From positions 65,937 to 129,936 of the forward strand of contig LFCK01000002.1 in assembly GCA_001189095.1 (NCBI GenBank): a stretch of DNA of 64,000 nt. The letters run 5' to 3'. Positions 55,028 through 56,387 of this stretch are shown here, piece after piece. Each line of letters starts with the position of its first letter. The first letter of the stretch is position 1. Made by a program: the position numbers and the translations under genes. The DNA comes from Parcubacteria bacterium C7867-001 (GTDB taxonomy: Bacteria > Patescibacteriota > Minisyncoccia > Phycocordibacterales > Phycocordibacteraceae). The notes under the pieces are model-generated. The model saw only the letters and a program-made list of their open reading frames with translations, was not told the DNA's origin and did no database searches.

Positions 55028-55051
55028 ACGGCCCGCCGAAAGGCGGGCCGT
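55028..55051. repeat. Hairpin ACGGCCCGCC-gaaa-GGCGGGCCGT (copy 1 of a repeated hairpin)
   Basis: Stems identical to the hairpin at 56360-56387. The two flank the DUF262 gene. Confidence 0.6.
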
Positions 55052-55063
55052 GTACACAGAGGA

Positions 55064-56329
55064 CTACGTTCCCGTTTGCGAGAACTCAGTGTCGGAAGCG
55101 GGTTCGCCGCCTTCTTCACCTTCGCCCTCAGCCTCATAGACCACGACCTCCTCTTGGCTGGGTTTAGCAGCGTAGGGAGACGCGTAGCGCGACTGGAGTC
55201 GGTGTTCGCGACGACCGGAGTCGATGTAGGTCTTCAGGTTGTTGTAGAGCATCTGCGTCGCCTGATTCGAGCTGGAGCCCGCAAGCATCGCGATGGTCGG
55301 ATCGAAGACGCGGAAGGTCTTGAGCTTGTTCTTGATGCGCGAAGGCATAATGAACTGCCCAGGGACCTGCCGATGCCAGAAGTCGTGGTGGTCGGAAACC
55401 AGGCTCGCGAACGCGAACAGGAATCCGCCCCGTAACCACGGCGTCGAGGAGCCGTACGCGACGTTCTTGATGCCCCAGATCTCGTCGATCGCGTCGAAGA
55501 AACCCTCGACGCTTTCGCGATACCTCTGAAGCGTAATTTCGCCGGCAAGGTTATCGAGCGAACCCGCGATTGCCGATGCTTGCTTGCCGCTCGTCCCGCT
55601 CTTTACGAGATGGGCGAACAGCTTGCCGCAGGTCTGCAGCATCATGAGCACGGTAATGAGCTCAGTGCGCTGCATATTGTGCCCCCACTGCACCCGCTCG
55701 TAGAGCGGAAACGTCGGGGTGGCGCGCGTAAGTCCGTAGAGCGTCGTGACCGAGACGTGGTTCTCTTTCGAATTGCGAATGAGCACGTTCGGCGACACTT
55801 TGACGCGGTACGCATTCAAGGCAGCGAACAATTCCGTTTCCGACCAGTGGTCCGTATTGAGGCGGACCATGGCGCCGATCGAAATCGGCCAGTCTGGTTT
55901 TTCACGGAGCCATTCTTCGATGGTGCCGATGCGTTGCCGCCCGTCCACGATATACACGGGGGACTTGAGGCGAACCGACGCATTGTCGAGCATCTCGAAA
56001 TCTTCTCCGCGCATCCCGAGTTCAATGTCCGGAAGGCGCTTTTTCTTCTCGATCGCATCGTTGATGCGGCCGCGCGACTTCAGCGAGAGCAGTTCGCGCT
56101 GGTACGAGTCGATGTTCAGAAGCCCAAGCGTATCGAGGTCAAGACGACCCCGAAACACGCTTGAGCCCTCGTGCGATTCAAGAGCGGCATCCCGAAGGAC
56201 AACGCCGATTTTCGCCGAATTATGGCGGTGAAGCTCATCCATGAGCTTGTCTCCTGTATGTTCTCGCTGCGGTGCGTCGTAAATGACGTCGTATGTGCGA
56301 GGGATGTCGAACGACAGTCCGCTACGCAT
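55064..56329 (-). CDS. DUF262 / DndB-like ParB-fold protein (DGQHR-type motif, here DGRQR)
   Basis: YIVDGRQRIGTIEEW matches the DGQQR/DGQHR signature of DUF262 / GmrSD-N / DndB ParB-like NTPase-nuclease domains. 421 aa with an acidic tail. Confidence 0.6.
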   Translation of the reverse strand: MRSGLSFDIPRTYDVIYDAPQREHTGDKLMDELHRHNSAKIGVVLRDAALESHEGSSVFRGRLDLDTLGLLNIDSYQRELLSLKSRGRINDAIEKKKRLPDIELGMRGEDFEMLDNASVRLKSPVYIVDGRQRIGTIEEWLREKPDWPISIGAMVRLNTDHWSETELFAALNAYRVKVSPNVLIRNSKENHVSVTTLYGLTRATPTFPLYERVQWGHNMQRTELITVLMMLQTCGKLFAHLVKSGTSGKQASAIAGSLDNLAGEITLQRYRESVEGFFDAIDEIWGIKNVAYGSSTPWLRGGFLFAFASLVSDHHDFWHRQVPGQFIMPSRIKNKLKTFRVFDPTIAMLAGSSSNQATQMLYNNLKTYIDSGRREHRLQSRYASPYAAKPSQEEVVVYEAEGEGEEGGEPASDTEFSQTGT

Positions 56330-56359
56330 AGTAGCGATAAAATGAGGGAAGTCAATGCG

Positions 56360-56387
56360 AAACGGCCCGCCGGAGGCGGGCCGTTTC
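56360..56387. repeat. Hairpin AAACGGCCCGCC-ggag-GCGGGCCGTTT (copy 2); also a plausible terminator for hup
   Basis: Identical 11-bp stems to copy 1. It lies downstream of the hup stop. Confidence 0.6.

What the first reader, a model, noticed from the sequence alone, without database searches (positions are those of the whole stretch)
55028..56387. Stand-alone DUF262/DGQHR-like ParB-fold gene flanked by two near-identical hairpins
ORF 55064..56329 (421 aa) contains YIVDGRQRIGTIEEW. This is the signature region of DUF262 / GmrSD-N / DndB-type ParB-like domains, which recur in phage-defence and DNA-modification systems. It has no DUF1524/HNH partner and no dnd or ssp genes nearby. It is bracketed by hairpins with identical 11-bp stems: AACGGCCCGCC-(gaaa|ggag)-GGCGGGCCGT at 55028-55051 and 56360-56387. 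This looks like a discrete inserted module or a pair of shared terminators. The upstream neighbour (53831..54940) is an uncharacterised coiled-coil protein.
Basis: partly seen in the sequence, partly recalled or inferred. Interest (0 to 1): 0.6.

Follow-up and report, generated by a model that had tools for sequence, protein, structure and literature searches.

The report
Phage-type ParB-like gene between terminators
A stand-alone gene for a ParB-fold, DUF262/DndB-like nucleotide-switch DNA-binding protein, from an unnamed family found mostly in uncultured phages, sits in a variable gene island of a Parcubacteria (CPR) chromosome, and the two look-alike hairpins around it are most simply ordinary transcription terminators.

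Summary
The ORF, the motif and both hairpins are real. The source is Parcubacteria bacterium C7867-001. The likely start is Met30 (56242; 392 aa), which has an AGGAG Shine-Dalgarno sequence and a promoter-like site upstream.

The protein matches DndB, DGQHR and GmrSD_N models only below their curated cut-offs. It does carry the YQR pair, DGxQR and FxxxN motifs. A confident AlphaFold model (pLDDT 85) gives its best, though weak, matches to ParB-N domains, BrxU and SspE. Eight helices follow the ParB core, which fits the published "ParBDB" DNA-binding domain by count only.

The family is distinct: about 355 clusters, roughly 360 aa each, always stand-alone and with no Pfam entry. Members lie mainly on phage contigs among recombination, replication and methylase genes, with no conserved partner. 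None was found in 50,697 isolated phages.

Two related genomes have HU directly next to RarA. The window genome has a 4.4-kb island there, and ORF392 is absent from all three relatives examined.

The hairpins are the HU terminator and the gene's own terminator. The same stem occurs in more than 120 unrelated genomes, and other terminator pairs in the window share 9-nt arms. Their identity alone therefore does not prove element boundaries. Function is inferred: an NTP-gated DNA sensor or regulator without an effector.

The parts
56401..56673 (-). HU (Bac_DNA_binding) gene, the upstream neighbour in the direction of transcription
   Evidence: Pfam PF00216, E 6e-30. 84-86% identical to the HU of three related genomes at the same position.
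56358..56388 (-). Hairpin B: the HU terminator. 14-bp stem, 3-nt loop, weak U tail (UUUCGCAUU).
   Evidence: Starts 12 nt after the HU stop codon. -30.4 kcal/mol, z -6.3. A similar hairpin, AAATGGCCGCC-cctct-GGCGGCCATTT, follows HU in relative L171.
56328..56355 (-). Sigma-70-like promoter candidate (TTGACT, 16 nt, TACTAT) for the ParB-like gene
   Evidence: Consensus scan, 9 of 12 matches. This is a consensus match only. The same kind of promoter-like sequence precedes the homologues in L169 and L253 (read from the sequence).
56251..56255 (-). Shine-Dalgarno AGGAG, 8 nt upstream of the Met30 start codon (56242)
   Evidence: Read directly from the sequence. Other assemblies call the 392-aa product.
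55064..56242 (-). ORF392, a stand-alone ParB-DUF262/DGQHR-like protein (421 aa if counted from 56329). The ParB/Srx core is at about aa 84-143 and an eight-helix C-terminal domain at about aa 190-370 (421-aa numbering). It ends in an acidic tail.
55931..55945 (-). Motif II, DGRQR (family consensus DGxQR), the predicted nucleotide-binding centre
   Evidence: D129, G130 and R133 are invariant and Q132 is at least 90% conserved. DGxQR is found in 175 family sequences. The motif definition comes from PMC12065111 and PMC4619093.
55018..55051 (-). Hairpin A plus its U-rich tail: the intrinsic terminator of ORF392
   Evidence: Starts 12 nt after the stop codon. 10-bp stem, UUUC loop on the RNA, tail UUUUCCUUUUC. 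-22.9 kcal/mol, z -4.8.
53831..54940 (-). ORF369, a fast-evolving protein with a C-terminal coiled coil. It is the downstream neighbour and not an obligate partner.
   Evidence: Only a self-hit in the word-indexed search. A 31%-identical homologue (E 2e-38) sits next to RarA in relative L171, which has no ORF392.
53801..53823 (-). Intrinsic terminator of ORF369
   Evidence: -20.5 kcal/mol.
52001..56357 (.). Variable island between HU and RarA, carrying ORF225, a TrmB-like regulator, ORF369 and ORF392
   Evidence: In L172 and L173, HU and RarA are convergent and 44-45 nt apart, sharing one terminator. L171 carries different cargo plus the ORF369 homologue.

Best explanation
ORF392 (55064..56242) encodes a two-domain protein. 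The N-terminal part is a ParB/Srx-fold domain of the DUF262/DGQHR type. The C-terminal part is an eight-helix domain that I equate, by helix count and architecture only, with the 'ParBDB' DNA-binding domain described for DndB, NsnA, GmrSD and SspE.

The protein most likely binds DNA and uses binding and hydrolysis of a nucleotide triphosphate at the clustered YQR / DGxQR / FxxxN site as a conformational switch. It has no nuclease or other effector domain and no fixed partner gene. It would therefore act as a sensor or regulator of DNA, as DndB does, rather than as a restriction enzyme.

The gene belongs to a distinct, unnamed family that lives mainly in uncultured phages, in their recombination, replication and methylation modules. 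The Parcubacteria copy is a horizontally acquired unit with its own promoter, gene and terminator, resembling a phage 'moron'. It lies in a variable island between HU and RarA. Its host-like codon usage suggests that it is retained.

The two near-identical hairpins are Rho-independent terminators: B ends the HU transcript and A ends the ORF392 transcript.

- **Shown:** the ORF, the motifs, the fold, the family distribution, the synteny break, and the position and stability of the hairpins.
- **Inferred:** NTP binding, DNA binding, the biological role, and the direction and age of the transfer.
For: **Motifs and HMMs.**
- Invariant D129, G130, R133, E164, F168 and L171; near-invariant Y76, Q77, R78, Q132 and N172.
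- In 175 family sequences: YQR in 169, DGxQR in essentially all, FxxxN in 172.
- Weak DGQHR hits in 24 of 28 members (best E 4e-9) and weak GmrSD_N hits in 19 of 28.

**Fold.**
- AlphaFold2 pLDDT 84.8.
- The best Foldseek PDB matches are ParB-N of pNOB8, PadC, Noc, BrxU and SspE.
- 37 viral-structure matches at E < 1e-3 are GmrSD_N, DndB or ParB-type proteins.
- The model has eight helices after the core. This matches the ParB-DUF262 + ParBDB architecture described in PMC12065111.
- ATP/GTP binding by a DndB-like protein is reported in PMC12704722.

**Family.**
- 540 representatives at E < 1e-3 and 355 at E < 1e-30; the 150 listed are mostly full-length, about 340-430 aa.
- 38 IMG/VR contigs and 80 metagenome loci carry a relative.
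- Neighbours include portal, TerL, capsid, RecT, ERF, YqaJ, PD-(D/E)XK, SSB, AAA_24 and methyltransferases. No neighbour cluster occurs in more than 10 of 44 loci.

**Island.**
- Searches show the synteny break.
- Codon usage resembles that of housekeeping genes.

**Terminators.**
-.
- The hairpin sequence occurs in more than 120 unrelated genomes.
Against: - No HMM reaches a curated family threshold for the window protein.
- Foldseek matches to solved structures are weak (E 2e-3 at best, TM 0.2-0.3 on the query).
- The W of DUF262 motif I (QRxxxW) is absent.
- No biochemical data exist for any member of the family.
- The direction of transfer (phage to bacterium) is inferred from distribution alone.
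- Hairpin B has a poor U-tract, so it may terminate inefficiently.
- The near-identity of the hairpins (24 of 25-26 nt) is higher than for any other pair in the window. It could reflect duplication at insertion rather than ordinary terminator resemblance.
Confidence: 0.6

Rival explanations
1. The gene is a domesticated single-gene defence or superinfection-exclusion factor. It would sense foreign, perhaps modified, DNA, as DUF262 domains do in GmrSD, SspE and Menshen. It would block that DNA directly, for example through the nuclease activity reported for some ParB/Srx proteins such as Osa, or through an unlinked effector.
For: - The DUF262-type motifs and fold are present.
- The gene lies in a variable hotspot where a relative carries other accessory cargo, including a GHKL ATPase with an HTH protein.
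- It has its own promoter and terminator and host-like codon usage.
- DUF262 proteins without DUF1524 exist in the defence systems PD-T4-2, Dazbog and Menshen (PMC12065111).
Against: - PADLOC gives only a DndB hit at E 0.028 and nothing to Menshen, Dazbog or PD-T4-2.
- There is no effector domain and no conserved neighbour.
- Most family members are on phage contigs, not in bacterial defence islands.
Confidence: 0.2
2. In phages, the family is an anti-defence protein. As a sensor-only ParB-DUF262 + ParBDB protein, it would compete with or poison host DUF262-based restriction sensors (GmrSD, BrxU, SspE, Menshen), or shield modified phage DNA. On this reading the Parcubacteria copy is a leftover of a prophage.
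For: - The architecture matches the sensor half of those systems but lacks an effector (PMC12065111).
- Members sit in early DNA-metabolism regions of phages, near methyltransferases in several loci and next to an NAD-salvage gene pair (NAMPT + PRPP synthetase) in one.
Against: - This is pure inference; there is no evidence of interaction with host sensors.
- The chromosomal copy has host-like codon usage and intact motifs, which argues for use by the cell.
- No other prophage genes lie next to it.
Confidence: 0.1
3. The two hairpins are the scars of insertion. The ORF392 cassette would have landed at the HU terminator and duplicated it, as an att-like or target duplication. The family would then travel as a single-gene integrative cassette.
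For: - 24 of 25-26 nt are identical between the hairpins, the best pair among 630 hairpin pairs in the window.
- Hairpin B resembles the HU terminator of relative L171, so it is probably the native copy.
- A second chromosomal homologue (L169) is flanked by a perfect 36-nt direct repeat. That repeat consists of the last 6 nt of tRNA-Glu plus its terminator, at a spacing of 1515 nt, with no integrase inside.
- Direct repeats also flank the gene in L178 (20 nt) and L253 (40 nt at 85%).
Against: - Other terminator pairs in the window share 9-nt arms although they are 10-23 kb apart.
- L171 has a second hairpin of the same type at an unrelated place.
- The stem is generic, occurring in more than 120 unrelated genomes.
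- Flanking repeats of at least 16 nt occur at 4 of about 100 family genes against 3 of 353 control genes in the same loci, which is not convincing.
- The repeat sequences differ between loci.
- Hairpin loops of 3-4 nt do not resemble a tyrosine-recombinase core site.
Confidence: 0.2
4. The protein is a chromosomal nucleoid or segregation factor of the Noc or orphan-ParB type. On this reading, its position next to HU, or next to ScpA/ScpB in L169, is meaningful.
For: - The fold matches ParB-N and Noc.
- It lies next to HU here and next to ScpA/ScpB in L169.
- Orphan ParB proteins are widespread (PMC12704722).
Against: - It is absent from three related genomes at this locus.
- Only same-species copies are closer than about 42% identity.
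- There is no PF02195 hit, no GERR box and no HTH domain.
- The neighbours differ in every locus.
Confidence: 0.07
5. The hairpins are copies of a REP-like dispersed repeat of this genome.
For: - The two copies are nearly identical.
- A similar hairpin occurs twice in relative L171.
Against: - There are only two copies in 64 kb.
- Each sits 12-13 nt after a stop codon, on the coding strand, in terminator position.
- There is no conserved flanking sequence.
- No Y1/RAYT-type transposase domain was seen among the window ORFs whose Pfam hits were listed.
Confidence: 0.05

Closest known systems
DndB / DGQHR-domain proteins (PF14072, TIGR03187, TIGR03233), including DpdB
   Same: - Stand-alone protein of about 360 aa.
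- ParB/Srx core with a QR pair, a DG..R pentapeptide and FxxxN, followed by a helical domain.
- This is the best HMM match for the window protein, and 24 of 28 relatives hit DGQHR.
   Different: - All scores are below the curated cut-offs.
- The pentapeptide is DGxQR (DGRQR here), not DGQHR.
- There are no dnd or dpd genes nearby.
- The family is phage-borne with variable neighbours.
DUF262 / GmrSD_N domain (PF03235) of GmrSD, BrxU and SspE type IV restriction enzymes
   Same: - The DGxQR and FxxxN motifs are present.
- Fold matches to BrxU (7p9m) and SspE (6jiv) extend over most of the length.
- 19 of 28 relatives hit PF03235 weakly.
- Many viral GmrSD_N-type structures match.
   Different: - There is no DUF1524 or HNH nuclease domain.
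- The window protein itself has no PF03235 hit.
- The W of motif I is missing.
NsnA of the Menshen system (ParB-DUF262 + ParBDB sensor; PMC12065111)
   Same: It has the same two-domain sensor architecture without a nuclease.
   Different: - There are no NsnB or NsnC genes nearby.
- No PADLOC hit to Menshen models.
Canonical and orphan ParB / Noc CTPase-fold proteins (PF02195; PMC12704722)
   Same: - The N-terminal domain has the same fold.
- They share an association with mobile elements and phages.
   Different: - No PF02195 hit, no GERRxRA box and no HTH DNA-binding domain.
- No parA or parS.
Phage 'morons' (autonomous promoter-gene-terminator units)
   Same: - It has its own promoter-like site, Shine-Dalgarno sequence and terminator.
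- Its occurrence between conserved genes is sporadic, and its neighbours vary.
   Different: 'Moron' is a descriptive category, not a homology family. Here the unit sits in a bacterial chromosome with no recognisable prophage around it.

Membership tests
DndB / DGQHR (PF14072, TIGR03187, TIGR03233) | HMM score at or above the curated cut-off | tested here: not met
   PF14072 19.4 bits against 29.1; TIGR03187 25.4 against 58.85; TIGR03233 12.7 against 328.
DndB / DGQHR (PF14072, TIGR03187, TIGR03233) | Nearly invariant DGQHR pentapeptide | tested here: not met
   DGRQR here. In the family: DGLQR 109, DGQQR 36, and no DGQHR among 175 sequences.
DndB / DGQHR (PF14072, TIGR03187, TIGR03233) | QR pair and FxxxN motif | tested here: met
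   Y76-Q77-R78 and F168...N172 are conserved. The motif definition is from PMC4619093.
DndB / DGQHR (PF14072, TIGR03187, TIGR03233) | Linkage to dndACDE or dpd genes | tested here: not met
   The neighbours within ±8 kb are NusA, PPase, ClpP, RNase Y, HU, a TrmB-like protein, RarA and HtrA. No such genes appear among the ±2 neighbours of 38 phage-type loci.
DUF262 / GmrSD_N (PF03235) | HMM score at or above the gathering threshold | tested here: not met
   The window protein has no hit at E ≤ 1. 19 of 28 relatives hit weakly, best E 3.8e-5.
DUF262 / GmrSD_N (PF03235) | Motif II DGxQR and motif III FxxxN | tested here: met
   The motif definitions are from PMC12065111.
DUF262 / GmrSD_N (PF03235) | Motif I QRxxxW | tested here: inconclusive
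   The QR is present (YQRE) but no conserved W follows.
GmrSD / SspE / BrxU type IV restriction enzymes | C-terminal DUF1524 or HNH nuclease domain | tested here: not met
   No such Pfam hit. The C-terminal half of the model is all-helical.
ParB/Srx fold superfamily | ParB/Srx core fold | tested here: met
   The AlphaFold2 model has pLDDT 84.8. The top PDB matches are 5k5d, 6ryk and 7ol9 (ParB-N, PadC, Noc) at probability 0.9-1.0 but low TM-score. 37 viral ParB/GmrSD_N/DndB-type matches were found.
Canonical ParB (PF02195 / TIGR00180) | HMM hit, GERRxRA box, HTH domain, parA/parS partner | tested here: not met
   No PF02195 or TIGR00180 hit. No ParA-type domain was found among the neighbours.
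Menshen / Dazbog / PD-T4-2 (DUF262-containing defence systems) | Match to the system's models and presence of partner genes | tested here: not met
   PADLOC returns only DndB at E 0.028. There is no conserved neighbour.
Rho-independent (intrinsic) terminator | GC-rich stem-loop just after a stop codon, followed by a U-tract on the transcribed strand | tested here: met
   Hairpin A lies 12 nt after the stop codon with the tail UUUUCCUUUUC. Hairpin B lies 12 nt after the HU stop, with a strong stem but a weak tail (UUUCGCAUU). Actual termination was not measured.
REP-like or dispersed repeat | Many copies per genome, not tied to gene ends | tested here: inconclusive
   There are two copies in 64 kb, both at gene ends. 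The rest of the genome could not be read.
Integrated element with att duplication | Direct repeats flanking the insert, plus absence of the insert from related genomes | tested here: inconclusive
   The insert is absent from three relatives. A 24-nt near-identical repeat is present. However, the repeat is a generic terminator and there is no recombinase nearby.

The most novel reading that the evidence does not exclude
The family may be a selfish, single-gene mobile cassette. A ParB/Srx-fold NTPase or nuclease, carried with its own promoter, would insert next to terminators or tRNA 3' ends and duplicate 20-40 nt of the target. This would explain three things: the twin HU terminators here, the perfect 36-nt repeat at tRNA-Glu in L169, and the family's sporadic occurrence without partners in phages. 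Alternatively, the family may be a new class of phage-encoded 'sensor-only' decoys against DUF262-based restriction.
Probability: 0.1. Interest if true: 0.75.

Novelty: new variant of a known kind. Interest (0 to 1): 0.4.

Why it matters
**What the family shows.** ParB-fold nucleotide switches are now known to reach far beyond chromosome segregation (PMC12704722), and DUF262 domains serve as DNA sensors in several defence systems. This family has at least 355 clusters at 50% identity and no Pfam entry. None of its members was found in cultured phages. It shows that phages themselves carry the sensor half of that architecture as a free-standing gene. Learning what it senses, and for whose benefit, would bear on phage-host conflict and on the nucleotide-switch repertoire of the fold.

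**The Parcubacteria copy.** This is a rare chromosomal example in a reduced CPR genome. It lies in a clearly delimited insertion hotspot between HU and RarA, which makes presence/absence comparisons easy.

**The hairpins.** Taken alone, they are ordinary.

Tried and rejected
- **Isolated phages.** tblastn of the window protein and of two phage homologues against 50,697 isolated phage genomes found nothing.
- **PHROGs.** No family for the window protein. One relative gave a weak ParB-like hit.
- **PDB sequence profile.** Only a spurious hit at E 0.9.
- **PADLOC on the window ORFs.** The output was swamped by UvrD/GajB models and was uninformative about dnd or ssp genes.
- **Genome-wide hairpin count.** The count in this genome remains unknown.
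- **ORF369 as a partner.** Rejected, because its homologue in L171 occurs without ORF392. Its weak JetC/SMC hits look like coiled-coil noise.
- **Conserved neighbour search.** The only widely shared 'neighbours' were antisense shadow ORFs of the gene itself. Real neighbour clusters occur in at most 10 of 44 loci.
- **Flanking direct repeats as a family-wide property.** Four of about 100 family genes have repeats of at least 16 nt, against 3 of 353 control genes. I judged this unconvincing, without a formal test, and rejected it as a general rule.
- **Strain-level presence/absence.** All other assemblies of the species show the same arrangement.
- **Rfam.** Nothing in the region.
- **Metagenome scan.** The first attempt with the full alignment failed because no stretch was conserved enough. 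It was repeated with 12 sequences.
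Full report
**Observation.** The region was read directly. ORF 55064..56329 lies on the minus strand, is 421 codons long and contains YIVDGRQRIGTIEEW at residues 126-140.

All three local genes are on the minus strand, and each is followed by a hairpin:
- HU (56673..56401; PF00216, E 6e-30), followed by hairpin B.
- The ORF in question, followed by hairpin A.
- ORF369 (54940..53831), followed by a third hairpin at 53823..53801.

Hairpin A (55028-55051) has a perfect 10-bp stem and a GAAA loop. 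Hairpin B (56358-56388) has a perfect 14-bp stem and a 3-nt loop. They share AAACGGCCCGCCG and GGCGGGCCGT, and the flanks do not align. Read in the direction of HU, they are ACGGCCCGCCT-C-CGGCGGGCCGTTT and ACGGCCCGCCT-TT-CGGCGGGCCGTTT.

As RNA they fold at -30.4 kcal/mol (B) and -22.9 kcal/mol (A), with z-scores of -6.3 and -4.8. The 10-mer ACGGCCCGCC occurs without mismatch only at these two hairpins in the 64 kb.

**Start codon.** The first ATG overlaps the -10 hexamer of a promoter-like site, TTGACT-16-TACTAT at 56355..56328, and has no ribosome-binding site. Met30 (56242) has AGGAG 8 nt upstream. Homologues align only from about residue 38-41. Other assemblies of the same species carry a 392-aa gene call. 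I therefore take the gene to be 55064..56242.

**Source and setting.** The protein is 100% identical to hypothetical protein ABA06_03075 of Parcubacteria bacterium C7867-001. The neighbours are core genes: NusA, pyrophosphatase, ClpP, RNase Y and HU on one side; a TrmB-like regulator, RarA/MgsA and HtrA on the other. DnaA, RuvB, UvrD and YidC lie elsewhere in the window. No dnd, ssp, DUF1524 or HNH gene was found nearby.

**What the protein is.** Sequence models give only sub-threshold hits:
- DndB PF14072: E 6e-4, 19.4 bits against a cut-off of 29.1.
- DGQHR TIGR03187: E 1e-5, 25.4 bits against 58.85.
- DndB equivalog TIGR03233: 12.7 bits against 328.
- No GmrSD_N hit, and only DndB at E 0.028 in PADLOC.

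Across 28 family members, 24 hit DGQHR weakly (best E 4e-9) and 19 hit GmrSD_N weakly (best E 3.8e-5).

The alignment shows Y76, Q77 and R78 nearly invariant. D129, G130 and R133 are invariant, with Q132 at 90% or more. E164, F168 and L171 are invariant, and N172 is nearly so. Among 175 family sequences the pentapeptide is DGLQR (109), DGQQR (36) or DGRQR (6). YQR is present in 169 and FxxxN in 172.

These are the QR, DGxQR and FxxxN motifs described for DUF262 and DGQHR domains (PMC4619093, PMC12065111). The W of motif I is missing, and the fourth residue is Q, as in DUF262, rather than H, as in DGQHR.

An AlphaFold2 model built on the family alignment is confident (pLDDT 84.8). Its best matches among solved structures are ParB-N of pNOB8, PadC and Noc, followed by BrxU and SspE. 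All are weak (E 2e-3 or worse). Against predicted viral structures there are 37 matches at E < 1e-3, annotated as GmrSD_N, DndB, sulfiredoxin or ParB-like proteins of phages and giant viruses.

After the ParB core the model has eight helices. PMC12065111 describes an eight-helix 'ParBDB' DNA-binding domain that follows the ParB-DUF262 domain in DndB, NsnA, GmrSD and SspE. I did not test that equivalence beyond the helix count and the long BrxU and SspE alignments.

**The family.**
- A profile search of 1.84 billion representatives found 540 proteins at E < 1e-3 and 355 at E < 1e-30. The 150 listed are mostly full-length, about 340-430 aa, each matched in a single stretch.
- None of the 28 members from the first search has a precomputed Pfam domain.
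- Seven homologue contigs look like phage genomes. They carry HNH, RusA, GcrA, ERF, YqaJ, N6_N4 and ParB_N-fused methylases, a VapE-like primase, AAA_5 with CobT_C, and NAMPT with PRPP synthetase.
- 38 IMG/VR viral contigs of up to 241 kb carry a relative.
- The two genes on each side in 38 loci include a T4-type portal, TerL, capsid, RecT, ERF, YqaJ, PD-(D/E)XK, SSB, AAA_24, DUF2800 and several methyltransferases.
- No neighbour cluster is present in more than 10 of 44 loci. The larger clusters were antisense shadow ORFs of the gene itself.
- No relative was found in 50,697 isolated phage genomes.

The family is therefore stand-alone, mostly phage-borne and so far uncultured.

**The gene lies in an inserted, variable segment.** Genomes whose RNase Y is 78-80% identical were examined.
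- In two of them (L172 and L173) the order is NusA, PPase, ClpP, RNase Y, HU, and then RarA directly. HU and RarA are convergent, 44-45 nt apart, and share one terminator.
- In a third (L171), four other genes lie between HU and RarA. The last of these is a 31%-identical homologue of ORF369 (E 2e-38).
- None of the three has a relative of ORF392 at this locus.

Window positions of about 52.0-56.36 kb (ORF225, the TrmB-like gene, ORF369 and ORF392) are thus a variable island. ORF392 is an addition specific to this lineage.

Its codon usage matches that of the housekeeping genes (GC3 0.75). Either the acquisition is not recent or the donor had similar composition. All other assemblies of the species show the same arrangement.

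**The hairpins.** Each begins 12-13 nt after a stop codon on the coding strand. Hairpin A has a U-rich tail, while B has a strong stem but a poor tail. The terminator-like scan found 37 sites in 16 kb against 17.8 expected. Hairpin B resembles the hairpin that follows HU in L171, AAATGGCCGCC-cctct-GGCGGCCATTT, so it is probably the native HU terminator.

Is the near-identity of A and B evidence of an element boundary? Three points favour that reading:
- They are the most similar pair among 630 hairpin pairs in the window.
- Under a position-specific composition model, two GC-rich arms are identical over 10 nt with a probability of about 3.5e-4.
- They flank a lineage-specific gene.

Four points count against it:
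- Two other pairs, 10-23 kb apart, share 9-nt arms.
- L171 has a second hairpin of the same type, AAGAAACGGCCGCC...GGCGGCCGTTTCTT, at an unrelated site.
- The exact hairpin occurs in more than 120 unrelated genomes from many phyla.
- Given three such near-identical pairs among about 21 hairpins, my estimate of the chance that one pair is adjacent is roughly one in four.

I conclude that they are two ordinary terminators. Duplication of the HU terminator at insertion remains possible, at about 0.2, but is unproven.

**A related observation.** The only other clearly chromosomal homologue I saw is L169, next to ScpA/ScpB and two-component genes. It lies just after tRNA-Glu(CTC). It is flanked by a perfect 36-nt direct repeat made of the last 6 nt of the tRNA plus its terminator, at a spacing of 1515 nt. 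The gene's GC content is 0.64, against 0.54 for the contig. This looks like an att duplication around a single-gene remnant.

Flanking repeats also occur in L178 (20 nt) and L253 (40 nt at 85%). Control genes in the same loci show repeats of at least 16 nt in 3 of 353 cases, against 4 of about 100 for the family gene. I do not claim this as a property of the family.

**Mechanism (inferred).** By analogy with DndB, GmrSD, SspE and NsnA, and with the demonstrated ATP/GTP binding of a DndB-like protein (PMC12704722), the conserved YQR / DGxQR / FxxxN residues should bind a nucleotide triphosphate. The helical domain should bind DNA. With no effector domain and no fixed partner, the protein would act as an NTP-gated DNA-bound sensor or regulator.

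Its biological role is open. It could support phage DNA metabolism or modification, counter host defence, or, in the Parcubacteria cell, provide defence or exclusion.

**Novelty and score.** This is a new family-level branch of a well-known superfamily, with an unusual host range (uncultured phages plus a CPR chromosome). The hairpins are ordinary. I score interest at 0.4.

Noticed in passing
L169:6502-8268 (GCA_027449805.1, contig DAIDKY010000022.1): A chromosomal homologue (gene 6887-7987; GC 0.64 against 0.54 for the contig) lies just after tRNA-Glu(CTC). It is flanked by a perfect 36-nt direct repeat, CTACCAGCATTTATTTGGCTCTCAGGAGCCTTTTTT, made of the tRNA 3' end plus its terminator, at a spacing of 1515 nt. 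The 15-nt tRNA 3' end is also repeated 147 nt downstream. This looks like nested att duplications around a single-gene remnant with no integrase inside.
   Followed up: partly
window 29700-36715: A low-GC stretch (0.46-0.49) holds a large serine recombinase (30812-32566, minus strand). It lies next to a ComM-like Mg-chelatase ORF (35651-36715) that ends at profile position 112 of 207. A second Mg_chelatase/Mg_chelatase_C piece lies elsewhere in 1-47 kb. This is probably an element integrated into comM.
   Followed up: no
window 10978-23249: A long minus-strand operon, mostly of proteins without Pfam hits, includes a TraG/VirB4-like P-loop ATPase (14712-16535). It may be a type IV secretion or conjugation-like cluster.
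   Followed up: no
window 60462-61130: The inorganic pyrophosphatase is only 37-38% identical to that of relatives. Their NusA, ClpP, RNase Y, HU and RarA are 74-89% identical at the same positions. This suggests replacement by a distant homologue. The listed GTG start also overlaps NusA by about 100 nt, so the true start is probably further downstream.
   Followed up: no
L171:10530-14310: A related genome has a second insertion between RNase Y and HU. It carries genes of 94 and 246 aa, a 570-aa GHKL ATPase (HATPase_c_3) and an HTH_3 protein. The surroundings of HU therefore act as a hotspot for accessory genes in this clade.
   Followed up: no
window 40716-40743, 62927-62953, 63396-63412, 63953-63981: Several terminator-like hairpins share the core CCGCGGC-ttt/aaa-GCCGCGG. 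Pairs 50275/60112 and 40716/63953 share 9-nt arms. Terminator stems in this genome thus fall into look-alike groups.
   Followed up: partly
L005:5635-9089: In one phage-like contig the family gene directly follows a PRPP synthetase and a NAMPT-type phosphoribosyltransferase. From my own knowledge, such a gene pair has been linked to NAD+ restoration by phages.
   Followed up: no
window 53831-54940: ORF369 returned only itself in the word-indexed search of 5.8 billion proteins. A local tblastn nevertheless found a 31%-identical homologue (E 2e-38) at the equivalent place in L171 (16778-17923). It is a fast-evolving island gene rather than a true orphan.
   Followed up: partly
L178:1725-3013 and L253:1255-2725: The family gene is bracketed by a perfect 20-nt direct repeat in L178 (spacing 1269). 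In L253 it is bracketed by a 40-nt repeat at 85% identity (spacing 1431), each copy preceded by a hairpin. Control genes in the same loci show similar repeats at a lower but not clearly different rate.
   Followed up: partly
window 55064-55150 (C-terminus of ORF392): The protein ends in an acidic, low-complexity tail (EAEGEGEEGGEPASDTE) after a basic NSGxR..RL motif. About 39% of 175 family members have a net-acidic last 25 residues.
   Followed up: partly
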